Assembly (NCBI GenBank): GCA_001819395.1
Contig: MHMQ01000032.1
Location: 20,150-84,149, forward strand
Direction: 5' to 3'
Origin: Candidatus Niyogibacteria bacterium RIFCSPLOWO2_01_FULL_45_48
GTDB taxonomy: Bacteria > Patescibacteriota > Minisyncoccia > HO2-45-28
DNA length: 64,000 nucleotides
The position numbers and the translations under genes are program-made. This document shows, in pieces, positions 2,308 through 61,810 of the stretch (its first letter is position 1; every line of letters begins with the position of its first letter). The notes under the pieces were generated by a model. The model ran no database searches. It worked only from the letters and a program-made list of their open reading frames with translations, and was not told where the DNA came from.

Positions 2308-3195
2308 ATGGCACACTTGCATGATGAGAAGATTAAAGAGTTAGAGAAGAAGGCGAATGAGATTCGCCAGACTTTGATTGAATCGTTAATTGAGGCGGGG
2401 TCGGGGCACTCGGCAGGGCCTTTGGGCATGGCTGATATTTTCACTTTGCTTTATTTTCATGTTTTGGAGCACGACCCGAAAAAACCGGATTGGCCGGAGC
2501 GCGACCGTTTGGTGCTTTCAAACGGCCACATTTGTCCCGTTCAATACGCGACAATGGCCCATGCAGGATATTTTTCAATCAAAGAAACCAAAACGCTTCG
2601 TAAATTAGGCACAAGGCTGCAGGGGCATCCTCATCGCACTTCGCTTCCGGGACTTGAGACGACCTCTGGCCCTTTGGGTTCCGGCCTTTCGCAGGCCGTC
2701 GGAATGGCGATTGCTTTAAGAATGGATGGCAAGAAAAACATCGTGTACTGTCTGATGTCTGACGGCGAGCACGACGCGGGGCAGACATGGGAGGCGGCAA
2801 TGCTTGCCGGCCGTGAAAAATTGTGGAATCTGGTTGCGATAATGGACAGGAACAACATCCAAATTGACGGTAACACAGAAGATATAATGCCGCTTGAACC
2901 TCTTCGCGCCAAATACGAAGCGTTCGGCTGGCATGTAATTGATGTAGGAGGGCATGACTTTCAAGAATTGAACTCGGCGATTGATGAGGCCAAGGCGGTT
3001 TTTGAAAAACCCACAATGATTATCGCGCACACCATTCCGGGCAAGGGCGTAGAATATATGGAGCGAGATTTTCGCTGGCACGGCGTTCCGCCGGGCAAGG
3101 GGCCCGAGGATAAATTCCCGCGCGACAAACAGGGCGCGGAGGCCATTAAAGAATTGCGCACATTATGGGGCAGAATAAAAAGCGAACATGAGTAA
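2308..3195 (+). CDS. transketolase, N-terminal (TPP-binding) subunit of a split enzyme
   Basis: 295 aa; GHSAGPLGMADI, LSNGH, GPLGSGLSQAVGMA, DGEHDAGQTWEA transketolase N-half signatures. Confidence 0.9.
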   Translation: MAHLHDEKIKELEKKANEIRQTLIESLIEAGSGHSAGPLGMADIFTLLYFHVLEHDPKKPDWPERDRLVLSNGHICPVQYATMAHAGYFSIKETKTLRKLGTRLQGHPHRTSLPGLETTSGPLGSGLSQAVGMAIALRMDGKKNIVYCLMSDGEHDAGQTWEAAMLAGREKLWNLVAIMDRNNIQIDGNTEDIMPLEPLRAKYEAFGWHVIDVGGHDFQELNSAIDEAKAVFEKPTMIIAHTIPGKGVEYMERDFRWHGVPPGKGPEDKFPRDKQGAEAIKELRTLWGRIKSEHE

Positions 3196-3197
3196 TT
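3170..3197. repeat. 28-bp direct repeat (copy 1) = 3' end of transketolase N-subunit gene
   Basis: GCAGAATAAAAAGCGAACATGAGTAATT; 27/28 identical copy at 4837-4864; partial copies at 3855-3871 and 3935-3948. Confidence 0.85.
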
Positions 3198-3200
3198 AAA

Positions 3201-3863
3201 ATGAATAATATAAACATGGGAACAAAAACAAAGATTTTTGCATTTAGTGCAATATTGACAATATCCTTAATATATCTGTTCAGTGGCTTATTTCGTTTAG
3301 GCGGGTATCTAAGCTATACATATTTGGGCGTTGACCTGTTTCTGGATAAGTATGGACCCGCTCTGCCCAAGCTAGCTTTCCTGCTTTTATGGATCTTAAT
3401 GGGTGTCGTCTTGTTAGTAATATTAAAGAGATATAAGGTTAAAAACTATGTATTGTCTAAAATCTTTTTGGTTTCTGCGTTTGAATTTTTCATATTTGTG
3501 ATCAATCTTGTGATAAGCAGTGCAGTTGGAGGTGTGCCGGGCATGACAGGAATATTTTCAGCAATGATAATAGTTTGTGCTTTGATGATTTTCTCAAGTC
3601 TGGTAAAAGATTTTGGAAACATGAAAATAGATCAATCAACGCTCGAGGCGCCGGAGATTTTGGCGAGAGATAATAGCGAGAAAAAAATCAGAAACCATAT
3701 CGTCAATCTCGTCATTATAATTTCGACTATGTTCATCGCTTGGGCTATTTTGAACTATTTCGTCTCCAGCGCGTATATACAATATTCTCTTTTTAGATTT
3801 AAAAGTCCTTATTATATTAACCCCTCCAGCTCTTTACGCCACCCAACTATTTGGGAAAAATAA
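3201..3863 (+). CDS. hypothetical integral membrane protein
   Basis: 220 aa, AT-rich, multiple TM helices; sits between the two transketolase subunit genes. Confidence 0.45.
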   Translation: MNNINMGTKTKIFAFSAILTISLIYLFSGLFRLGGYLSYTYLGVDLFLDKYGPALPKLAFLLLWILMGVVLLVILKRYKVKNYVLSKIFLVSAFEFFIFVINLVISSAVGGVPGMTGIFSAMIIVCALMIFSSLVKDFGNMKIDQSTLEAPEILARDNSEKKIRNHIVNLVIIISTMFIAWAILNYFVSSAYIQYSLFRFKSPYYINPSSSLRHPTIWEK

Positions 3864-3941
3864 AAAGCGAACACCAATGATTTTTATAAATTATAAATAT
3901 TGTGAAATCACGCACCGAACTTGTTCTGGTGCGAGGCGAAC

Positions 3942-4820
3942 ATGAGTAAATATTTTATAGCCAGCATTTTGATCGTTATCATTTTTGCTGTTGCCGGCGT
4001 TTACTTTCTGATAAAAGAAACCGACGTACTTGAAAATAAGGCTGGTCAAAACTTGGAACGAAATCCGGCGGAATCCGTTATAAATCCGAAAGATTATATT
4101 TTGGAGAGTTATCCCTTAAGTCAGTCGCCGATTTACGACAGTCTTGAGAAAAATTGTTTTGACCGGCATATAGCGAGCGCCAAAGACATCCGTCTCGTTA
4201 AAGATCAAAACATTTTGGTGCCGAGCTTGTTGCGTCTTGTTTATCAAAGTGAAAATCAAAAGCCCGGGTGCCTGGAATACGTTGTTTCAGTTTTTTCCGT
4301 GCCTACGGGTGGGGAATACCTGTATTTTCAGGCTTCCCTTAATCCTGATGCTAACGTAAAGTACGCAGGTCCTTTTGGAATATACGCACTGGACTTGTCC
4401 GACTTGTCATTAAAAAAATTGTCCGTATCAAAATTTGTTTTCAACTTAGACGAGTACTTGCCTATTTCGGAAGGCACTTATCAGATTTTGGCTGGGGGGA
4501 ATCAGTTGGTGGACTGGGATTCGGGAGGTGTGTATCTTATAAACTTGGAAACAGATACCAGAAGCAGTATTTATAAAACAAAAGATGGTCAATGGCTTGT
4601 TTCAAGAATAATATTTGGCATGGGGCCATATTTTGGCCACGGTGTAAGGGTTGTAAACGACGAAATTATTGTTGGGGTATATGATAAAACCAAAACAGAA
4701 GATGGCTATCCAATCAAAATAGATCAGTACGGTAATATTTTTGCAGAGTCAGCTTCCGGAGCAGTTCTACGCGAATTTAAACCCAAGTTTATAGAAAACA
4801 TAACTTTGTATGTAAAATGA
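3942..4820 (+). CDS. hypothetical protein with N-terminal TM anchor
   Basis: ATG at 3942 preceded by GAGG; one N-terminal TM helix then soluble domain; no recognisable motif. An alternative TTG start lies at 3921. Confidence 0.45.
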   Translation: MSKYFIASILIVIIFAVAGVYFLIKETDVLENKAGQNLERNPAESVINPKDYILESYPLSQSPIYDSLEKNCFDRHIASAKDIRLVKDQNILVPSLLRLVYQSENQKPGCLEYVVSVFSVPTGGEYLYFQASLNPDANVKYAGPFGIYALDLSDLSLKKLSVSKFVFNLDEYLPISEGTYQILAGGNQLVDWDSGGVYLINLETDTRSSIYKTKDGQWLVSRIIFGMGPYFGHGVRVVNDEIIVGVYDKTKTEDGYPIKIDQYGNIFAESASGAVLREFKPKFIENITLYVK

Positions 4821-4836
4821 TTAAAAATATTATAGA

Positions 4837-4864
4837 GCAGAATAAAAAGCGAGCATGAGTAATT
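4837..4864. repeat. 28-bp direct repeat (copy 2), encodes orphan ...SRIKSEHE* tail
   Basis: GCAGAATAAAAAGCGAGCATGAGTAATT just after the stop of the 3942-4820 gene. Confidence 0.85.
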
Positions 4865-4883
4865 CGGCTGTTGCGTTAAATGT

Positions 4884-4893
4884 GGGGGGGGGG
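4884..4893. repeat. homopolymeric G10 tract in the promoter region of the surface-protein gene
   Basis: tgtGGGGGGGGGGttatc, 48 nt upstream of ATG 4941; preceded by TTGCGT (possible -35) so the tract would sit in the -35/-10 spacer. Confidence 0.85.
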
Positions 4894-4940
4894 TTATCAT
4901 TTAAACATTATTAGTTATCAATATTATAAATAATAAATAT

Positions 4941-7061
4941 ATGAAAATGAGGGTATTTGCAGCGGTCGTTACAATTATTATATTTTTAGGCGTTTTCGGC
5001 GCTCCGAAAGCTCACGCGGCATTAACCGAAGCCCAGATCCAGGCGATTTTGGGCCTTCTGCAATCGTTTGGCGCTGACCAGAGCGTTATAAATAACGTCA
5101 ACTCGTCGCTTCGTGGCGGGGTAGCGGTTGCGCCTTCAGGAACCGTACAAATCGCGCTTTTCACCGAGAATCTGGGTTGGGGGTCCACGCATCCCGAAGT
5201 TTCAAAACTGCAGCAGTTTTTAAAGGAGCGTGGATATTTTACCGGAGAAGTGACCGGAAGCTTTTTTGGCGCGACAGCGCAGGCAGTCAAAACATTCCAG
5301 TCTAAATACCAAATTGAGCAGAGCGGCTATTTCGGCCCGCAAACCCGCGCGGTTGCCAATAATATTTTACAAGGCGGGCAGACCCAGCCTTCCATCACCG
5401 TCCTTTCGCCGAATGGGGGAGAGGTGTGGGAAATTGGTTCTACAAACAGAATTGAATGGAAAAATTCGAATCTCCCCAGTGGCTCGGATCCGATAAACAT
5501 ACAATTGGTAAATGAACAAGGGGTTCTTATTACGACAATTGCTCAAGGTGTAGCAACGGGGGGTGTTTCCACAGGAGTGGGCGGGGGGGCGTATATGTGG
5601 ACTATTCCAAGTTCAATGAGCTCGGGCACTTATCGTATTAGAGTTATTTGCACCAAAGAACTTGCAGACTGTTTTTCTGGAAGCCTTCCTGTTAGCGATA
5701 CAAGCGACGCGCCGTTCAGTATTGTGGCACCCACAACGACGACCCTGCCTTCCGCCGGCTCTCTTTCTGTTTCGCTTGATTCCGCGACAAGTTTTGGATT
5801 TAGGAATGTGCTTATCGGATCAACCGGTGTTAGCCTTGCCAGCCTTAGATTCACTGCGGTCGGCGAAGATATCGATGTCAAACAGATAGCGCTTCAACTT
5901 TCGGACACCGCCCTTAACACTCCGGACGACCTTTTAAATCGAGAAATTCAACTCTACGACGGGAACGCTGTTTTGATCGGCCGGGCGGTTTTTACAACCG
6001 GCGATTACGCGATATCGACAAACATAATTAATTTCAGGGTGCCCGGAGGAGGATCCAAAGTCATGTTTATCAAGGGCGATATTGCCGCCAATGCGACTAT
6101 CGGCGACACGCTGAAAGTTGATTACGACGGCAATAATGCCGGTCTTGGAGGAAATTATGGTGTTGGTTGGACATCAGGCAATACCATTATTCCAACAGGT
6201 TCTGACACCGCTTCAGCCGGAGTTAAAATTATAAGTCCAACATCGGCAACCCAGCCCTCAATCACCGTTCTTTCGCCGAATGGCGGAATCGCCCAACTGT
6301 CCGGAGGCGCGTTTGATATTAAGTATAGAACTTCGGGTGTTTCGCGAATTGGTTTGGTTTTGATTAAAAATGGCGTGACGGTTTCTAGTGTTGGTATGTT
6401 CGACCAACTTGCCGACGGCGAGCACAGCGTGGCTTTCCTTGTGGGCCCACACAACGAACAAACTATCGGAACAGGAAGCGGATACAAAGTTAAGATTTAT
6501 AATTGGGATAACGCGAGTACTGTTGATGAGAGCGATGCTTTGTTTAGTATCGTGAAGCCGTCCCTGACCGCAAGCCTTGATGCGGGTTCTCCTGCTGGTT
6601 CTATTCTGGCGGGGACCTCCCGCGTTTCTTTAATGAGGGTTAAATTGTCGGCGGGGGATAGTGACGTGAAAATCAACGGCGTAACTATTCAAGACAACGG
6701 CGCAGGCGGCAGAATATCAAATTTAGAACTAACGACACCGACGCAACAAGATGCCGAAACTCACTTGGCCAATGGCGTTGCCATGGGCGGCGGCAGATAT
6801 CAGTTTTCGGCTCCCATCACGATTCCGGCAAACGGCAGTAAATTGCTGGACATTAGAGTCAATGTTTCGCCAACAGCATCGGGAGGCGTGTGGCTGACGT
6901 TTGAAAGTGTTCTTCATGGTTATGGCAACAGTTTGGTTGTCAGCGGTTTGGGATTTCAGGGCTCAATTCTCAACATAACCGGAACGTCGTCAATTGTTCC
7001 CAATGCCAGAAACTTTGCGAATATTTTTCAGTGGTGGCCTTTGACGATGGCTCCTCGCTAG
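4941..7061 (+). CDS. secreted Ser/Thr/Gly-rich surface protein with peptidoglycan-binding (PG_binding_1-like) domain and internal repeats
   Basis: Signal peptide MKMRVFAAVVTIIIFLGVFGAPKAHA; PG-binding-like stretch HPEVSKLQQFLKERGYFTGEVTGSFFGATAQAVKTFQ; repeated QPSITVLSPNGGE modules at approx nt 5390 and 6250. Confidence 0.65.
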   Translation: MKMRVFAAVVTIIIFLGVFGAPKAHAALTEAQIQAILGLLQSFGADQSVINNVNSSLRGGVAVAPSGTVQIALFTENLGWGSTHPEVSKLQQFLKERGYFTGEVTGSFFGATAQAVKTFQSKYQIEQSGYFGPQTRAVANNILQGGQTQPSITVLSPNGGEVWEIGSTNRIEWKNSNLPSGSDPINIQLVNEQGVLITTIAQGVATGGVSTGVGGGAYMWTIPSSMSSGTYRIRVICTKELADCFSGSLPVSDTSDAPFSIVAPTTTTLPSAGSLSVSLDSATSFGFRNVLIGSTGVSLASLRFTAVGEDIDVKQIALQLSDTALNTPDDLLNREIQLYDGNAVLIGRAVFTTGDYAISTNIINFRVPGGGSKVMFIKGDIAANATIGDTLKVDYDGNNAGLGGNYGVGWTSGNTIIPTGSDTASAGVKIISPTSATQPSITVLSPNGGIAQLSGGAFDIKYRTSGVSRIGLVLIKNGVTVSSVGMFDQLADGEHSVAFLVGPHNEQTIGTGSGYKVKIYNWDNASTVDESDALFSIVKPSLTASLDAGSPAGSILAGTSRVSLMRVKLSAGDSDVKINGVTIQDNGAGGRISNLELTTPTQQDAETHLANGVAMGGGRYQFSAPITIPANGSKLLDIRVNVSPTASGGVWLTFESVLHGYGNSLVVSGLGFQGSILNITGTSSIVPNARNFANIFQWWPLTMAPR

Positions 7062-7077: not shown

Positions 7078-8103
7078 GTGTCGGTTAACCCCAAATCAAA
7101 ATTAGTTAAAGAAGTTTTGGACTTAAAAAAAGTCGGGCAGGCGCCGACGAGGAACGGGTATGGGGAAGGATTGGTGGAGGCGGGCAGGAAAGACAAAAAT
7201 GTGGTGGTGCTTTGCGCTGACCTGACCGAATCCACGCGTTCGGAAGCGTTTGCCAAAGAATTTCCGGAGAGATTCGTTCAAATGGGTGTGGCCGAGCAAA
7301 ATATGGCTTCGGTTGCGTCCGGCATGGCCGCGGTCGGCAAAATTCCTTTCATTTCTTCTTACGCCATGTTTAGCCCGGGGAGGAACTGGGAGCAGATAAG
7401 AACGACGATTTGCTATAACGAACGGCATGTGATTATCGGAGGCGCGCATGCGGGGGTTTCGGTGGGTCCTGACGGCGCGACGCATCAGGCAATTGAAGAT
7501 ATTGCCATAACCCGCGTTTTGCCGAATATGACCGTGATTGTGCCTTGCGATGCGGTTGAGGCCAAAAAAGCGACTGTGGCCTCGGTGGGGCTGAAAGGCG
7601 CTGTGTATCTTCGCTTTGCCCGCGAAAAAACGCCGGTATTCACAACCGACAAAACTCCGTTTAAGGTTGGACGTGCTGAAATACTTTGGGATTCAAGCGG
7701 TAGTCCCTCGCTTCGCTCGGGACGATCACGGCTTGACGTAGCCGTGATCGCTTGTGGGCCGTTGGTTCATAACGCGCTTTTGGCCGCGGCAGATTTAGAA
7801 AAGAAAGGGATCAAGGTCCGCGTTATCAATAACCACACCATAAAGCCGATGGACGAGAAAACTATTTTGAAAGCCGCAAAAGATGCGGGCGCATTAGTAA
7901 CGGTTGAGGAGCATCAGATAAACGGGGGAATGGGCTCGGCCGTGGCCGAAATAATCACACGAAATTATCCCGTGCCGATTGAATTTGTCGGAGTCAAAAA
8001 CCGCTTCGGCGAGTCAGGAGAGCCAACCGAACTTATTGAACATTTCGGTATGTCGTCAAAGCACATAATTGAAGCGGCGCGTAGGGCGATAAAGAGAAAG
8101 TAA
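7078..8103 (+). CDS. transketolase, C-terminal (pyrimidine-binding/C-domain) subunit
   Basis: GTG start; GYGEGLVEAG, FVQMGVAEQNM, GATHQAIEDIA motifs of transketolase C-half. Confidence 0.9.
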   Translation: MSVNPKSKLVKEVLDLKKVGQAPTRNGYGEGLVEAGRKDKNVVVLCADLTESTRSEAFAKEFPERFVQMGVAEQNMASVASGMAAVGKIPFISSYAMFSPGRNWEQIRTTICYNERHVIIGGAHAGVSVGPDGATHQAIEDIAITRVLPNMTVIVPCDAVEAKKATVASVGLKGAVYLRFAREKTPVFTTDKTPFKVGRAEILWDSSGSPSLRSGRSRLDVAVIACGPLVHNALLAAADLEKKGIKVRVINNHTIKPMDEKTILKAAKDAGALVTVEEHQINGGMGSAVAEIITRNYPVPIEFVGVKNRFGESGEPTELIEHFGMSSKHIIEAARRAIKRK

Positions 8104-10067: not shown

Positions 10068-10937
10068 ATGAAAATTCTTAAAGAGTATTTAGCGGAGGCT
10101 GGGAACGACGGCTTGGCCATAGGCCATTTCAACATTTCAAACCTTGTGCAGTTAAAAGGCATTTTATCAGCGGTAAAAAAGACGGGTGTTCCGGTAATGA
10201 TCGGGACGTCCGAGGGCGAGGCGGACTTTATCGGTTTTAAAATGGCCAGGGCCATGGTTGATGCGGTACGTGAGGAAACGGGGCTTCCGATATTTTTAAA
10301 CGCTGACCATTTTCACAGCTTTGAAAAAGTCAAAGAGGCGATTGACGCCGGATACGATTCTGTTTTGATTGACCTGTCGCGCGAGAATTATAAAAAAAAT
10401 CTGGAAGAAACCAAAAGGGTTGTTGAATACGCCCATAGCGTTAACCCAGCAATAAGCGTTGAAGGAGAGCTTGGTTATTTGGTGACCGAATCGTCAAAAG
10501 TGTACAAAGAGTCGTTTGAAATTCCTTCAGAATCGCTGACCAAGCCCGAAGAAGCCTTGAAATATGTAAACGAGACCGGTGTGGACAGATTCGCGCCAGC
10601 AGTCGGAAATTTGCACGGGATTGCGGCGAATGAACCGAAACTGGACTTCGAACTTATTAAAAAAATTCGGGCGGTTTTGCCTTCGGAAGTTGCGATGGTT
10701 TTACACGGAGGTTCTGGGATACCCGACGACCAGATGCGCGAGGCGGTCAAACTCGGTTTTAATAATATACATATTTCAACCGAAATCCGCGTGGCCTATG
10801 TTGACGCTCTTCGCAAAATGCTCGCCGCCGCCCCCGAAGAAACCACGCCCTATAAAATTTACAAACCAGTCATTGAGGCAGTTGCCTCCAAAACCGCCGA
10901 AAAACTGGAACTTTTCGGAAGTGTTAACAAAATTTAA
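10068..10937 (+). CDS. fba: class II fructose-bisphosphate aldolase
   Basis: 289 aa; LAIGHFN, DHFHSF, LHGGSG zinc-aldolase signatures. Confidence 0.85.
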   Translation: MKILKEYLAEAGNDGLAIGHFNISNLVQLKGILSAVKKTGVPVMIGTSEGEADFIGFKMARAMVDAVREETGLPIFLNADHFHSFEKVKEAIDAGYDSVLIDLSRENYKKNLEETKRVVEYAHSVNPAISVEGELGYLVTESSKVYKESFEIPSESLTKPEEALKYVNETGVDRFAPAVGNLHGIAANEPKLDFELIKKIRAVLPSEVAMVLHGGSGIPDDQMREAVKLGFNNIHISTEIRVAYVDALRKMLAAAPEETTPYKIYKPVIEAVASKTAEKLELFGSVNKI

Positions 10938-14822: not shown

Positions 14823-15091
14823 GTTTTTATTTTTTTCTAAATGGTGCTGATTTAAAGCGATAGCAGATTTTTAGCACCTTTTTATTTTTTGACCAGTTGT
14901 TAAATTCGTCCATATGGTAAAAAATGACAACTTTTAGAAACATAGTCCAAAATCTATTCTCAAATTCTCAAGAATATTGGAATAGATTTAATTAAGCGCA
15001 AGCAAGGGTTTAAATGACTTGACAACAATGTTTTCCAGGCTTAATATTGGCGAGAGTAAGTTCTTTAAAAAGAGAGGGGGGGTAGGGCGCG

Positions 15092-15562
15092 ATGGCTGCC
15101 ATAAACGAAATTCTTTTTAGATATAACCGCTGCACACAGGAAGTCAAAGAAGCCGTAAATGTTTTATACACACAACTCGAAGGCTTGCAAAAATTGAGAA
15201 GGGAAATGAGGGGCTGTTTGGAAGGGTTGTGGGGAGCGTTGATGTGCGCTGTTGTCATGGCTTTTGTGGTCATACCGTTGATGTCAGGTTTTTTGCCAGC
15301 ACTTTTAGTTTTCGGAAAAAACTGGTTTTTTGTCGCGAGCTTCGTTTTGTGGTTTTTTGCGGTTTCTTTTATAAATTATATGACCGGATGGCGCATTTCT
15401 AAGCCGTATTTTGATGCGAAACGTCTGGAGTTGAAGAAAACCTTTTCGGGGTATGTAAACGAAAAAGACATTTTGGCTCTGCGATTTGTGTACGAATTTG
15501 ATCCTGATTTGGTAAGGTTGGCGGATCTTGAGTGGTTAGTTGCAAAACTGCGGGTTGATTAA
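15092..15562 (+). CDS. hypothetical membrane protein
   Basis: 156 aa, two to three TM helices, no motif. Confidence 0.35.
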   Translation: MAAINEILFRYNRCTQEVKEAVNVLYTQLEGLQKLRREMRGCLEGLWGALMCAVVMAFVVIPLMSGFLPALLVFGKNWFFVASFVLWFFAVSFINYMTGWRISKPYFDAKRLELKKTFSGYVNEKDILALRFVYEFDPDLVRLADLEWLVAKLRVD

Positions 15563-24836: not shown

Positions 24837-24862
24837 AAATCTGTTCTAATATTCTTGAGAAT

Positions 24863-25279
24863 TTGAGAATGAATGATATATATCAGGAGTTGATAATGGA
24901 GCATGCGAGAAATCCGAGAAATGTCGGAGTTATTCGAGGTGCCAAGAAAATTTTGGCTAAAAATCCTTTTTGCGGAGACGAAGCGGAGATTTATTTAAAA
25001 ATTAAAAACAACAAGGTCATTGACATAAAATATCAGATTCAGGGGTGTATTTTATCTCGCGCTTCGCTCTCAATTTTTTCGGAATATATTAAGGGAAAGT
25101 CTACAAGCGCGGTCTCAAAAATCAAAGACGAAGATATTTTCAAAATGATCGGCGGCACCCCCTCACCCTCCCGCCAAAAGTGCGTTTTATTTGGATGCGA
25201 AGCAATTCATGCTAATTTAGATACATGGCCGAAGAAAAACCCATCGACAAGACTCATGACAAGAAGATCGCAAAAATAG
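24863..25279 (+). CDS. sufU: SufU/IscU-like Fe-S scaffold (NifU N-terminal domain)
   Basis: NPFCGD, QIQGCILSRAS, FGCEAIH cysteine triad; 3' tail overlaps ferredoxin gene. Confidence 0.7.
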   Translation: MRMNDIYQELIMEHARNPRNVGVIRGAKKILAKNPFCGDEAEIYLKIKNNKVIDIKYQIQGCILSRASLSIFSEYIKGKSTSAVSKIKDEDIFKMIGGTPSPSRQKCVLFGCEAIHANLDTWPKKNPSTRLMTRRSQK

Positions 25280-26586: not shown

Positions 26587-27213
26587 ATGAAACACGAATT
26601 GCTAAAATTGCCATACGATTATTCGGCGCTTGAGCCATATATTGATTCCAGAACGATGGAGATTCATCACTCCAAGCATCATCAGGCGTATGTTGACAAA
26701 TTAAACGCGGCGCTTGAAGCCCACCTTGATTTGCAGGAAAAATCGGTTGAGGACTTGCTGAAAGATTTAAACTCCGTTCCGGAAGATATTCGAACGGCGG
26801 TTCGCAACCACGGCGGAGGGCATTACAACCACTCTATTTTTTGGACATCAATGGATTCGCCGACAAAGGTTGCTGTGACGGGCGGAAGCCGGGAGCCCGC
26901 AGGCGCGATTGGCGACGCAATAGACAAAGAATTCGGCAGATTTTCTGACTTCAAAGAAAAGTTCGCAGCGGTCGCGGTTGGCGTTTTCGGAAGCGGTTGG
27001 GCGTGGCTTGTGAAAGATAATTTGGGCAAGCTTATAATTATATCAACTCCAAATCAGGATAGCCCCGTGTCGCAAGGCCTTGCGCCGCTTCTTGGCATTG
27101 ATGTCTGGGAGCACGCTTATTATTTGAAATATCAAAATCGCAGGGCGGAGTATGTTGAAAATTGGTGGAATGTTGTGAATTGGGAGGAGGTTGGAAGGAG
27201 GTTTGTGGTATAG
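26587..27213 (+). CDS. sod: Fe/Mn superoxide dismutase
   Basis: 208 aa; [25 protein letters not shown] signatures. Confidence 0.9.
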
Positions 27214-33837: not shown

Positions 33838-33878
33838 TTTTTGATATTATTATATAGTATTTTTTGCGCCATTTGCGC

Positions 33879-34014
33879 GAAAGGGGGTCGGGGAAAAGCG
33901 GAAGGGTTTCCCCGCGGAGGAAAACAGACCCGACGCGCGAAGCGGTCGGGGCGCTAGAAACCGAGGGTTTCTAGGGAGCACGAGCGAATCCCTTGAGGTG
34001 AGCGAGCTGCGACG
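33879..34014. repeat. 136-bp GC-rich structured element, copy 1
   Basis: GAAAGGGGGTCGGGG...CTAGAAACCGAGGGTTTCTAG...GCGAGCTGCGACG; identical to copies 2 and 3 except one substitution (A for C in ACAGACCCGAC). Confidence 0.9.
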
Positions 34015-34074
34015 AAAATGGTGCAGAAAGCACACGGTTCATAAAGAAGTCAAAATAACGGCTTAGATTTTTTT

Positions 34075-34145
34075 GGGGGTATGGTTCAATGGTAGAACAT
34101 TGGTCTCCAAAACCAAAGATCAGGGTTCGATTCCTTGTACCCCCG
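34075..34145 (+). tRNA. tRNA-Trp (anticodon CCA), copy 1
   Basis: Acceptor GGGGGTA/TACCCCC, D-stem GTTC/GAAC, anticodon stem TTGGT/ACCAA with loop CTCCAAA, T-arm CAGGG-TTCGATT-CCTTG (one G-U). Confidence 0.85.
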
Positions 34146-34193
34146 CATTGAAAATTTTGGCATCTTTTGATGCCTAGAATTTCAAATTTGATA

Positions 34194-34212
34194 GGTACAA
34201 GGAATCGAACCC
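34194..34212. repeat. inverted 19-nt copy of the tRNA-Trp T-arm/acceptor 3' end
   Basis: GGTACAAGGAATCGAACCC is the exact reverse complement of GGGTTCGATTCCTTGTACC in the upstream tRNA; second copy at 34530-34548. Confidence 0.85.
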
Positions 34213-34214
34213 AC

Positions 34215-34350
34215 GAAAGGGGGTCGGGGAAAAGCGGAAGGGTTTCCCCGCGGAGGAAAACAGCCCCGACGCGCGAAGCGGTCGGGGCGCTAGAAACCGA
34301 GGGTTTCTAGGGAGCACGAGCGAATCCCTTGAGGTGAGCGAGCTGCGACG
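34215..34350. repeat. 136-bp GC-rich element, copy 2
   Basis: Exact 336-bp period with copy 1. Confidence 0.9.
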
Positions 34351-34410
34351 AAAATGGTGCAGAAAGCACACGGTTCATAAAGAAGTCAAAATAACGGCTT
34401 AGATTTTTTT

Positions 34411-34481
34411 GGGGGTATGGTTCAATGGTAGAACATTGGTCTCCAAAACCAAAGATCAGGGTTCGATTCCTTGTACCCCCG
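34411..34481 (+). tRNA. tRNA-Trp (anticodon CCA), copy 2, identical to copy 1
   Basis: Same sequence 336 bp downstream. Confidence 0.85.
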
Positions 34482-34529
34482 CATTGAAAATTTTGGCATC
34501 TTTTGATGCCTAGAATTTCAAATTTGATA

Positions 34530-34548
34530 GGTACAAGGAATCGAACCC
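34530..34548. repeat. second inverted tRNA-Trp 3' fragment
   Basis: GGTACAAGGAATCGAACCC. Confidence 0.85.
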
Positions 34549-34550
34549 AC

Positions 34551-34686
34551 GAAAGGGGGTCGGGGAAAAGCGGAAGGGTTTCCCCGCGGAGGAAAACAGC
34601 CCCGACGCGCGAAGCGGTCGGGGCGCTAGAAACCGAGGGTTTCTAGGGAGCACGAGCGAATCCCTTGAGGTGAGCGAGCTGCGACG
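34551..34686. repeat. 136-bp GC-rich element, copy 3
   Basis: Identical to copy 2. Confidence 0.9.
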
Positions 34687-61753: not shown

Positions 61754-61810
61754 CTTGAAGTAAGTTTGTTTTTTGTGTTTTCAACCCAAATCAGAGAAAA
61801 AGGAGATATT

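What the first reader, a model, noticed from the sequence alone, without database searches (positions are those of the whole stretch)
4871..4940. Poly-G(10) tract in the promoter region of a large surface protein: candidate phase-variation switch
Ten consecutive G at 4884-4893 lie 48 nt upstream of the start of the 706-aa secreted PG-binding, Ser/Thr-rich protein. They sit immediately after a TTGCGT hexamer and inside an AT-rich promoter-like stretch. Homopolymeric tracts of this length are slipped-strand mispairing hot spots. Placement in a -35/-10 spacer is the classic mechanism for on/off switching of surface antigens. A second shorter tract (G7, 5584-5590) lies inside the coding region (VGGGAYMW), where length changes would frameshift the protein.
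Basis: partly seen in the sequence, partly recalled or inferred. Interest (0 to 1): 0.6.

Follow-up and report, generated by a model that had tools for sequence, protein, structure and literature searches.

The report
Length-variable poly-G tract upstream of surface-protein gene
A run of ten G's in front of a cell-surface protein gene of an uncultured groundwater bacterium (Candidatus Niyogibacteria) is real and is eight G's long in two otherwise almost identical assemblies, so it is an unstable repeat, but whether it controls the gene is unproven.

Summary
The G10 tract is at 4884-4893, 47 nt before the ATG of a 706-aa secreted protein with a peptidoglycan-binding domain and Ig-like domains. 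It is the only G/C run of 8 or more in the 64-kb window. Across 15 same-species contigs from the Rifle aquifer, 13 carry G10 and 2 carry G8. Those two differ from the window by 0 SNPs in 2.7 kb and 2 SNPs in 8.5 kb. No other homopolymer changed length in about 160 kb of aligned same-species sequence. The tract is therefore a genuine indel hot spot.

The regulatory reading is only partly supported. A spacer placement needs TTGCGT-N18-TATCAT, which scores 8/12 and is expected by chance about 0.1 times in this spacer region. Two or three other promoter readings put the tract upstream of the -35 or in a 5' UTR. The gene lies inside a split transketolase operon, and tktC starts 16 nt after its stop with no terminator upstream. 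Read-through therefore makes a clean on/off switch unlikely; graded modulation or neutrality are the live options.

The G7 tract is at 5583-5589, one base off, and was invariant. The mechanism is a known kind, in a lineage where a literature search found no report of it. Interest is moderate to low.

The parts
4884..4893 (+). Poly-G tract: G10 in the window and 12 other contigs, G8 in 2 contigs
4871..4876 (+). TTGCGT, candidate -35 of promoter reading P1 (tract in spacer)
   Evidence: Read from the sequence. The regex match TTGNNN-N18-TANNNT starts at 4871. It was not reported by the consensus scan.
4895..4900 (+). TATCAT, candidate -10 of P1. The spacer is 18 nt with G10, 17 with G9 and 16 with G8.
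   Evidence: The same hexamer forms TTGCCA-17-TATCAT upstream of the gene at 26587.
4900..4927 (+). Alternative promoter reading P2: TTTAAA-16-TATTAT. The tract would lie 7-16 nt upstream of the -35.
   Evidence: 9/12. The variant contig L093 has an A>G change at 4926 inside this -10.
4929..4934 (+). Alternative P3: AATAAT, a leaderless-type -10 placed 6 nt before the ATG
   Evidence: By analogy with the genes at 10068, 10022(-), 16694(-), 26587, 1085 and 32589, which carry a -10-like hexamer 6-8 nt before their start codon
4829..4864 (+). Duplicate (92%) of the 3' end of tktN (3162-3197, coding ...RIKSEHE*). It is a junction scar of the hyp220+hyp292 insertion and ends 19 nt before the tract.
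   Evidence: (family D4)
3162..3197 (+). Original tktN 3' end, the source copy of the junction repeat
4855..4914 (+). 19-codon ORF (MSNSAVALNVGGGLSFKHY*) that starts in the duplicated tktN end and runs across the tract. No tract length fuses it to the 706-aa ORF, because of the in-frame TAA at 4902-4904.
   Evidence: Read from the sequence
4941..7061 (+). 706-aa secreted PG-binding / Ig-like surface-type protein (PGB706)
5583..5589 (+). Coding G7 (GGC GGG GGG GCG), invariant in all contigs
2308..3195 (+). Transketolase N-terminal half (tktN)
3201..3863 (+). hyp220, a lineage-specific inserted gene with an N-terminal hydrophobic segment
3942..4820 (+). hyp292, a lineage-specific inserted gene with an N-terminal transmembrane segment. 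Its start lies within a further copy of GCGAACATGAGTAA.
7078..8103 (+). Transketolase C-terminal half (tktC). Its GTG start is 16 nt after the PGB706 stop, and its N-terminus aligns with relatives.

Best explanation
The tract is a genuine, length-unstable simple sequence repeat in the 120-nt spacer upstream of a secreted peptidoglycan-binding/Ig-like surface protein gene of a Candidatus Niyogibacteria (CPR/Patescibacteria) population. Replication slippage changes its length; G10 is the common allele and G8 a minority allele.

The most likely consequence is graded modulation of an internal sigma-70-type promoter, not on/off switching. In the best-fitting reading, TTGCGT and TATCAT are separated by 18, 17 or 16 nt for G10, G9 or G8. 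That modulation would be superimposed on read-through from the transketolase operon. It would affect the surface protein and the co-transcribed tktC.

Shown here: the tract, its rarity, its length polymorphism on near-identical backgrounds, and the absence of any terminator, known RNA family, significant fold or ORF fusion. Inferred: the slippage mechanism, the promoter position, and any effect on expression.
For: G10 versus G8. 15 contigs of the same species were examined: 13 have G10, and L090 (ERZ27254845) and L092 (ERZ27254846) have G8. L092 has no other difference in 2.7 kb. L090 has 2 SNPs in 8.5 kb outside a divergent contig end. On the L090 figure (2 SNPs in 8.5 kb), this 10-nt site changes at least about 100 times faster than the background per-site divergence.

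Controls. No other indel, apart from the in-frame ones in the divergent allele L093 and a scaffolding N-run in L100, and no other homopolymer length change (A7-A8, T7, G7) was found in about 160 kb of same-species alignments. These include 10 contigs around the intergenic G7 at 15076. G8 and G10 both occur among MEGAHIT k141 assemblies, so the difference is not specific to one assembler.

Rarity. The expectation is 0.003-0.03 in the intergenic DNA of the window, and none of 10 or more was seen in 1.09 Mb of relatives.

Promoter plausibility. The organism has clear TTGACA-17-TATAAT-like sites, including TTGCCA-17-TATCAT. Two homologous CPR surface-protein genes have a similar layout, with a promoter-like site 30-50 nt upstream and an AU-rich leader without a Shine-Dalgarno sequence.

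Target type. The downstream protein has a signal peptide, PG_binding_1 and Kre9_KNH Ig-like domains. It has no close full-length homologue outside its own population, and a divergent allele was seen in L093. This is typical of fast-evolving surface proteins.

Precedent. Poly-C or poly-G promoter tracts tune transcription in Neisseria opc (cited in PMC6389960), and intergenic G/C tracts are part of the Campylobacter set of phase-variable loci (PMC8355987).
Against: No transcription start site is known. P1 scores only 8/12 and has a chance expectation of about 0.1 in this spacer region. P2, P3 and P0 (TTGTAT 4806 -16- TATTAT 4833) are equally possible and change the tract's role.

tktC, which has no room for its own promoter (16-nt gap), must be transcribed through the gene, and no terminator precedes the tract. 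Read-through therefore probably masks any promoter effect.

Only two alleles were seen, at consensus level, and no G9. The two G8 assemblies have adjacent accessions and may not be independent; L092 could be a mosaic of co-occurring haplotypes.

Long G/C tracts are not a general strategy here. This is the only one in 64 kb, there are 3 of 8 nt or more in 1.09 Mb of relatives, and none upstream of two homologous surface-protein genes.
Confidence: 0.45

Rival explanations
1. The tract is a neutral, mutation-prone homopolymer. It is unstable simply because it is long, and it has no regulatory role. The gene is expressed by operon read-through and/or a promoter downstream of the tract (P2 or the leaderless P3). 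The tract is a by-product of the turbulent insertion history of this junction.
For: The operon layout has a 16-nt gap to tktC and no terminator. The junction-duplication scar ends 19 nt upstream of the tract, and several relatives also carry insertions and duplications at the tktN 3' end. P1 is not statistically distinguishable from chance. No other such tracts are present in the window, and none lie upstream of the homologues examined. Only two alleles were seen, with one dominant.
Against: A G10 in a 22% G+C spacer is very improbable from local composition. It sits exactly where regulatory DNA for a surface protein is expected. Long G/C runs are strongly avoided in these genomes, so its persistence suggests that it is tolerated or selected.
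Confidence: 0.38
2. The tract regulates expression from outside the core promoter. It could change the distance or helical phase between an upstream site and the -35 (readings P2/P3). One candidate site is the 7-nt inverted repeat TTAAATG (4876-4882) / CATTTAA (4898-4904) that brackets the tract. Alternatively, it could act as a 5'-UTR element if transcription starts at P0.
For: The consensus scan's only hit in this spacer region is P2, downstream of the tract. Leaderless-type starts are common in this genome. The inverted repeat is read from the sequence. SSR effects mediated through the 5' UTR are documented in Haemophilus influenzae (PMC12721329).
Against: The inverted repeat is short and AT-rich, so it is probably a chance match. 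There is no evidence for a regulator. The RNA fold of the region is no better than shuffled sequence (z = +1.16). L093 carries a change in the -10 of P2.
Confidence: 0.15
3. The length difference is an artefact. G10 is a stable chance feature, and the G8 contigs reflect sequencing or assembly errors at a poly-G run.
For: Only consensus contigs were available, with no reads. The two G8 assemblies have adjacent accession numbers. Whole-window shuffles give a G10 in 16% of trials.
Against: A consensus 2-nt deletion would need the -2 product to outnumber both the parent and the -1 product in two data sets. Five other contigs of the same k141 type (ERZ27254754, ERZ27254745, ERZ27254842, ERZ4903070) or from Logan give G10. 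L090 and L092 differ at position 5118, so they are not copies of one contig. No other homopolymer is miscalled in about 160 kb.
Confidence: 0.08
4. The tract is a translational frameshift switch. It would lie inside a coding sequence: an N-terminal extension of the 706-aa protein, the 19-codon ORF at 4855-4914, or the antisense 58-codon ORF at 4724-4900, whose codons 3-6 are the poly-C.
For: Both small ORFs exist in the sequence. A tract near the 5' end of an ORF is the classic arrangement for translational phase variation.
Against: An in-frame TAA at 4902-4904 blocks any extension of the 706-aa ORF, and every tract length ends the 19-codon ORF before 4941 (read from the sequence). The 19-codon ORF starts inside a duplicated fragment of tktN. 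The antisense ORF overlaps the 3' end of hyp292 and was not called by any annotation pipeline in 15 contigs.
Confidence: 0.03

Closest known systems
Neisseria meningitidis opc (poly-C) and porA (poly-G) promoter tracts
   Same: A G/C homopolymer of about 10 nt lies next to or inside the -35/-10 region of a surface-protein gene. Its length changes by slippage and alters the spacing of promoter elements, giving graded expression. The opc case is as cited in PMC6389960; the porA case is from my own knowledge.
   Different: In this locus the start site and any expression effect are unmapped. Only two alleles were seen, at consensus level. The gene is embedded in a metabolic operon with probable read-through. 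The organism is an uncultured groundwater CPR bacterium, not a host-adapted pathogen.
Campylobacter jejuni intergenic and intragenic poly-G/C contingency loci
   Same: Poly-G tracts of 8 or more act as indel hot spots affecting surface structures, and a minority are intergenic (PMC8355987).
   Different: Campylobacter carries tens of such tracts per genome and lacks mismatch repair, with measured rates of 1e-4 to 1.6e-3 per division. In this window a single tract is seen in 64 kb, the status of mismatch repair is unknown, and no rate has been measured.
Bordetella pertussis homopolymeric tracts (e.g. fim promoters)
   Same: Poly-C/G tracts in promoter regions of surface-protein genes vary between isolates of a clonal population (PMC1891110).
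   Different: In the fim genes the tract lies between an activator (BvgA) site and the -10 (my own knowledge). No activator site is known for this locus.
Hypervariable 9-mer repeat gene in a Gracilibacteria (CPR) genome
   Same: This was the only slipped-strand-type hypervariation in a CPR genome found in the literature search, and it also concerns a putative extracellular protein (PMC6851277).
   Different: That case is a coding 9-nt repeat array that changes the protein sequence. It is not a promoter homopolymer.

Membership tests
SSR-mediated transcriptional phase variation (promoter homopolymeric tract) | G/C homopolymer at or above the length at which slippage becomes frequent (about 8-9 nt or more) | tested here: met
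   G10 at 4884-4893
SSR-mediated transcriptional phase variation (promoter homopolymeric tract) | Tract length differs among cells or isolates of one strain far more often than flanking sequence changes | tested here: met
   G8 in 2 of 15 contigs, with 0 SNPs in 2.7 kb and 2 SNPs in 8.5 kb of flanks, and no other homopolymer change in about 160 kb. This is consensus-level evidence only, with no read pile-ups.
SSR-mediated transcriptional phase variation (promoter homopolymeric tract) | Tract lies within or directly beside mapped promoter elements of the regulated gene | tested here: inconclusive
   P1 (tract in the spacer) scores 8/12 and is compatible with chance. P2, P3 and P0 place the tract elsewhere. 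No start-site data are available.
SSR-mediated transcriptional phase variation (promoter homopolymeric tract) | Expression of the gene depends on tract length | not testable with these tools
   Needs reporter fusions, in-vitro transcription or metatranscriptomes.
SSR-mediated transcriptional phase variation (promoter homopolymeric tract) | Switching is reversible and frequent (about 1e-5 to 1e-2 per division) | not testable with these tools
   The organism is uncultured and only consensus contigs were available.
SSR-mediated transcriptional phase variation (promoter homopolymeric tract) | The gene depends on this promoter and is not transcribed by read-through | tested here: inconclusive
   The layout argues against it. 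The genes tktN-hyp220-hyp292-PGB706-tktC are on the same strand, no terminator is predicted, and there is a 16-nt gap before tktC.
SSR-mediated transcriptional phase variation (promoter homopolymeric tract) | The regulated product is surface-exposed or otherwise a contingency function | tested here: met
   Signal-peptide-like N-terminus, PG_binding_1 and Kre9_KNH Ig-like domains. The protein is a species-level singleton, and a divergent allele occurs in L093. The location is inferred, not shown.
Translational (intragenic) SSR phase variation, for the coding G7 at 5583-5589 | Tract length varies in the population and produces frameshifted alleles | tested here: not met
   G7 is found in all contigs that cover it, including those retrieved through neighbouring genes (L088-L092, L096-L099).
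Translational (intragenic) SSR phase variation, for G10 | Tract lies inside the reading frame of the regulated gene | tested here: not met
   An in-frame TAA at 4902-4904 lies between the tract and the ATG at 4941, and no tract length fuses the upstream 19-codon ORF to the gene.
Intrinsic terminator or structured RNA element | Stable G+C-rich hairpin followed by a U run, or a match to a known RNA family | tested here: not met
   No terminator-like site lies between 4821 and 4940. The fold is -13.2 kcal/mol with z = +1.16 against shuffles. There is no Rfam match at E <= 1.

The most novel reading that the evidence does not exclude
This would be the first simple-sequence contingency locus described in the Candidate Phyla Radiation. 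In this reading, a poly-G tract in the spacer of an internal promoter stochastically tunes a peptidoglycan-binding surface protein, plausibly involved in cell-envelope or host contact in an episymbiont. Because of the operon layout, it would also tune the C-terminal half of a split transketolase. Surface variation and core pentose-phosphate metabolism would then be coupled to one slippage-prone repeat.
Probability: 0.25. Interest if true: 0.55.

Novelty: new member of a known kind. Interest (0 to 1): 0.35.

Why it matters
CPR/Patescibacteria are uncultured, ultra-small and probably symbiotic, and how they vary their surfaces is poorly known. Diversity-generating retroelements (my own knowledge) and one coding repeat array (PMC6851277) have been reported. 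Four full-text searches found no report of promoter simple-sequence-repeat variation in this group.

If tract length tunes expression, this locus would extend the classic pathogen strategy of 'contingency loci' to free-living groundwater symbionts. It would also be directly testable in the existing Rifle time-series reads.

If the tract is neutral, the finding is just an unstable homopolymer. Its practical relevance would be limited to being an assembly and variant-calling hot spot.

Tried and rejected
1. Comparison with orthologous loci in related species was not possible. In 80 related Parcubacteria species tktN and tktC are adjacent or separated by unrelated DNA, and none has hyp220, hyp292 or PGB706 there. 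PGB706 has no full-length homologue outside its own 90% cluster.
2. Two DNA-pattern scans of the JGI metagenome collection for the tract flanks found nothing, although JGI contigs with the locus exist (L005, L006). The collection scanned evidently lacks them, and both scans are spent.
3. Look-ups through tktN, hyp220 and tktC added no new tract alleles, because near-identical places are collapsed by the tool (9-17 'similar places not shown'). No variant lacking the hyp220/hyp292 insertion was found.
4. Terminator, riboswitch or structured-RNA readings were rejected.
5. ORF-fusion and frameshift readings were rejected (from the sequence; for the antisense 58-codon ORF, whose homologues I did not search).
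6. Generality was tested and rejected for the cases checked. Two homologous CPR surface-protein genes (P0013, P0057; many contigs each) have no homopolymer upstream.
7. I first took L093 (G10 with a divergent allele) as evidence that G10 is maintained across lineages. I rejected this because the contig is identical to the window up to 4925 and diverges only from 4926, so its tract is not an independent observation.
8. Phage or defence origin of the inserted genes found no support. The only hits were to the PG-binding domain.
9. No mutS or mutL is present among the large ORFs of the window that I scanned. The rest of the genome could not be reached.

Full report
**Observation**

The window carries ten consecutive G at 4884-4893 on the + strand. 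It is the only G or C run of 8 or more in 64 kb. The next longest are two G7, at 5583 and 15076.

The tract lies in the 120-nt spacer between hyp292 (stop at 4818-4820) and the ATG at 4941 of a 706-aa ORF, with 47 nt between the tract and the ATG. The TTGCGT hexamer (4871-4876) is separated from the tract by TAAATGT. The coding G7 is at 5583-5589, not 5584-5590.

The protein description holds:
- A signal-peptide-like N-terminus.
- PG_binding_1 at residues 83-137 and a Kre9_KNH Ig-like domain at 156-238.
- S+T 19%.

**Is it more than chance?**

Dinucleotide-preserving shuffles of the whole window give a G10/C10 in 16 of 100 trials. Presence alone is therefore not significant at window scale.

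The tract is intergenic, however, in a spacer of 22% G+C. The expectation for the 7.4 kb of intergenic DNA is 0.003-0.03. Empirically, 1.09 Mb from 80 related species contains six runs of 7, one of 8, two of 9 and none of 10 or more.

**Organism and context**

The sequence is Candidatus Niyogibacteria (Parcubacteria/CPR) from the Rifle aquifer. Identical proteins occur in three NCBI genome bins and many ENA, JGI and Logan assemblies.

The locus is a sugar-phosphate operon: GAPDH, rpiB, rpe, a hypothetical gene, then a split transketolase. In all 80 related species tktN and tktC are neighbours, and none has homologues of hyp220, hyp292 or PGB706 between them. The three genes at 3201-7061 are therefore lineage-specific insertions.

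A 36-nt copy (92%) of the tktN 3' end (3162-3197, coding ...RIKSEHE*) sits at 4829-4864, 19 nt upstream of the tract. Weaker copies lie at 3847-3882 and at the hyp292 start. I read this as a junction duplication left by insertion of hyp220+hyp292. On that reading, the tract-bearing spacer once followed the tktN stop directly.

Several relatives also carry duplications or small membrane-protein ORFs at this junction, so it is a recurrent insertion site.

tktC begins with a GTG at 7078, only 16 nt after the PGB706 stop, and its N-terminus aligns with relatives. It must therefore be transcribed through PGB706.

**Does the tract vary?**

Exact-protein look-ups on PGB706, hyp292, tktC, hyp220 and tktN returned contigs from many assemblies. 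Counting distinct contigs plus the window gives 13 with G10 and 2 with G8. The G8 contigs are L090 (ERZ27254845) and L092 (ERZ27254846).
- L092 is otherwise identical to the window over 2.7 kb.
- L090 has two SNPs (5118 G>T, G60W in PGB706; 7981 G>C) in 8.5 kb, apart from a divergent first 288 nt.
- The two G8 contigs differ at 5118, so they are not duplicates.

Across about 160 kb of same-species alignments, no other homopolymer changes length. This includes a 47-kb control set around the intergenic G7 at 15076. The only other indels are in-frame ones in the divergent allele L093 and a scaffolding N-run.

G10 and G8 both occur among MEGAHIT k141 assemblies, which rules out a pipeline effect. 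I conclude that the tract is a real indel hot spot, at least about 100-fold above the background divergence seen on the L090 contig. Three caveats apply:
- The data are consensus only.
- The two G8 samples may be related.
- No G9 was seen.

The coding G7 never varies, including in contigs fetched through neighbouring genes.

**Does it sit in a promoter?**

This genome has recognisable sigma-70-type sites, for example TTGACA-17-TAATAT at 15092, TTGACT-17-TATAAT at 61766 and TTGCCA-17-TATCAT at 26587. It has two kinds of gene start: starts led by a Shine-Dalgarno sequence, and leaderless-type starts with a -10 box 6-8 nt before the ATG. In the spacer upstream of PGB706, four promoter readings are possible:
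- **P1:** TTGCGT (4871) -N18- TATCAT (4895-4900). The tract fills the spacer, which is 18, 17 or 16 nt for G10, G9 or G8. A G sits at -14.
- **P2:** TTTAAA (4900) -16- TATTAT (4927). This is the only hit of the consensus scan in this spacer.
- **P3:** AATAAT (4929-4934) plus 6 nt plus the ATG, a leaderless-type arrangement.
- **P0:** TTGTAT (4806) -16- TATTAT (4833). This would put the tract in a 5' UTR.

P1 scores 8/12. Its loose pattern occurs 122 times in the window, about 0.1 expected in this spacer, so it cannot be distinguished from chance.

Two homologous surface-protein genes in other CPR genomes show a P1-like layout: a promoter-like site 30-50 nt upstream and an AU-rich leader without a Shine-Dalgarno sequence. 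Neither has a homopolymer there.

There is no terminator, no significant RNA fold (z = +1.16) and no Rfam match. An in-frame TAA at 4902-4904, together with stops in every frame, excludes any translational fusion across the tract. The 19-codon ORF at 4855-4914 begins inside the duplicated tktN fragment. An antisense 58-codon ORF (4724-4900) was never called by any pipeline.

**Mechanism**

The tract is best explained as a slippage-prone repeat. If it has a function, it most likely tunes an internal promoter in a graded way rather than switching the gene on and off, because read-through from the operon should transcribe PGB706 and tktC at any length. My estimates:
- About 0.8 that the length polymorphism is real.
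- About 0.45 for the combined statement that the tract is a regulatory repeat of the promoter-tract kind.
- About 0.38 that it is neutral.
- About 0.08 that the G8 alleles are artefacts.

**Comparison with known systems**

The closest are the Neisseria opc poly-C and porA poly-G promoter tracts, Bordetella promoter tracts and the intergenic poly-G tracts of Campylobacter (PMC6389960, PMC1891110, PMC8355987). The shared features are tract type and length, position upstream of a surface-protein gene, and length polymorphism in a near-clonal population.

The defining functional features are untested: a mapped promoter, length-dependent expression and reversible high-frequency switching. The operon context differs from these examples.

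Full-text searches found no report of promoter simple-sequence-repeat variation in CPR/Patescibacteria. The nearest is a coding 9-mer repeat array in a Gracilibacterium (PMC6851277).

**Verdict**

This is a new member of a known kind, in a lineage where a literature search found no report of it. Interest is moderate to low (0.35). It would rise to about 0.55 if read pile-ups and start-site mapping confirm length-dependent control.

Noticed in passing
window 3162-3197, 3847-3882, 3932-3945, 4829-4864; loci L008, L009, L011, L012, L015: The 3' end of tktN (GCGARCAYGARTAA, coding ...SEHE*) is duplicated several times around the inserted genes. Relatives also show duplications or small membrane-protein ORFs overlapping the tktN stop. 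The tktN-tktC gap ranges from 44 nt to about 2.5 kb across 80 species. The junction of the split transketolase looks like a recurrent insertion site for accessory envelope genes.
   Followed up: partly
window 33878-34686: A tandem repeat of 336 nt is present as two 300-nt copies at 100% identity (33878-34177 and 34214-34513), with a third copy of the first 137 nt. It carries two identical tRNA-Trp(CCA) genes at 34075-34146 and 34411-34482.
   Followed up: partly
locus L093 (ERZ27254745 k141_2696473), equivalent to window 4926-5480: This contig is identical to the window up to 4925. It then carries SNPs (4926 in the spacer; M3I, A7T and A8T in the signal peptide). From about 5422 it encodes a quite different Ig-like domain sequence (GGEQWLVGSSQVVKWESKNML...). 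It is either a mosaic or recombinant allele of the surface protein or a chimeric assembly.
   Followed up: partly
window about 4246-4254, 4608, 4640-4662 (inside hyp292): Several independent assemblies break their contigs inside hyp292: ERZ27254842, GCA_001819415.1 and JGI 3300025311. This hints at population-level structural or strain heterogeneity just upstream of the tract. No repeat explaining it was found in the window.
   Followed up: no
window 4876-4882 and 4898-4904: A perfect 7-nt inverted repeat, TTAAATG / CATTTAA, brackets the G tract with 15 nt between the arms. Tract length would change the half-site spacing. The repeat is short and AT-rich, so it may be a chance match.
   Followed up: no
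window, gene starts at 10068, 10022(-), 16694(-), 26587, 1085, 32589 versus 38528, 34806, 25560, 61555(-): Two classes of gene start coexist. Leaderless-type starts have a -10-like hexamer (often with TG) 6-8 nt before the ATG and no Shine-Dalgarno sequence. Classical starts have AAGGAG or GGAGG.
   Followed up: no
window 14956-14989 and 24837-24870: A 34-nt inverted repeat, 94% complementary, with arms 9.8 kb apart and both intergenic (I1). Its function is unknown.
   Followed up: no
L037 16368-16376; L040 4884-4892; L030 5543-5550: These are the only other G/C runs of 8 or more in 1.09 Mb of related genomes, and all are intergenic. One is a G9 21 nt before what reads, by eye, like the N-terminus of a reverse transcriptase (not tested against any family). 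One is a G9 upstream of GAPDH next to a 244-aa minus-strand ORF that looked transposase-like by eye (not tested). One is a G8 forming a terminator stem.
   Followed up: partly
L121-L130, about 60-85 nt upstream of the P0057 gene: A homologous surface-protein gene (its cluster is named Candidatus Nealsonbacteria in the source record) has a promoter-like site TTGACA-18-TAAAAT. The -35 is polymorphic between contigs (TTGACA versus TTGGCA).
   Followed up: no
window 15076-15082: A G7 forms part of the ribosome-binding region (AGAGGGGGGGTAG) of the gene at 15092, downstream of a strong promoter-like site (TTGACA-17-TAATAT). It was invariant in 9 contigs.
   Followed up: yes
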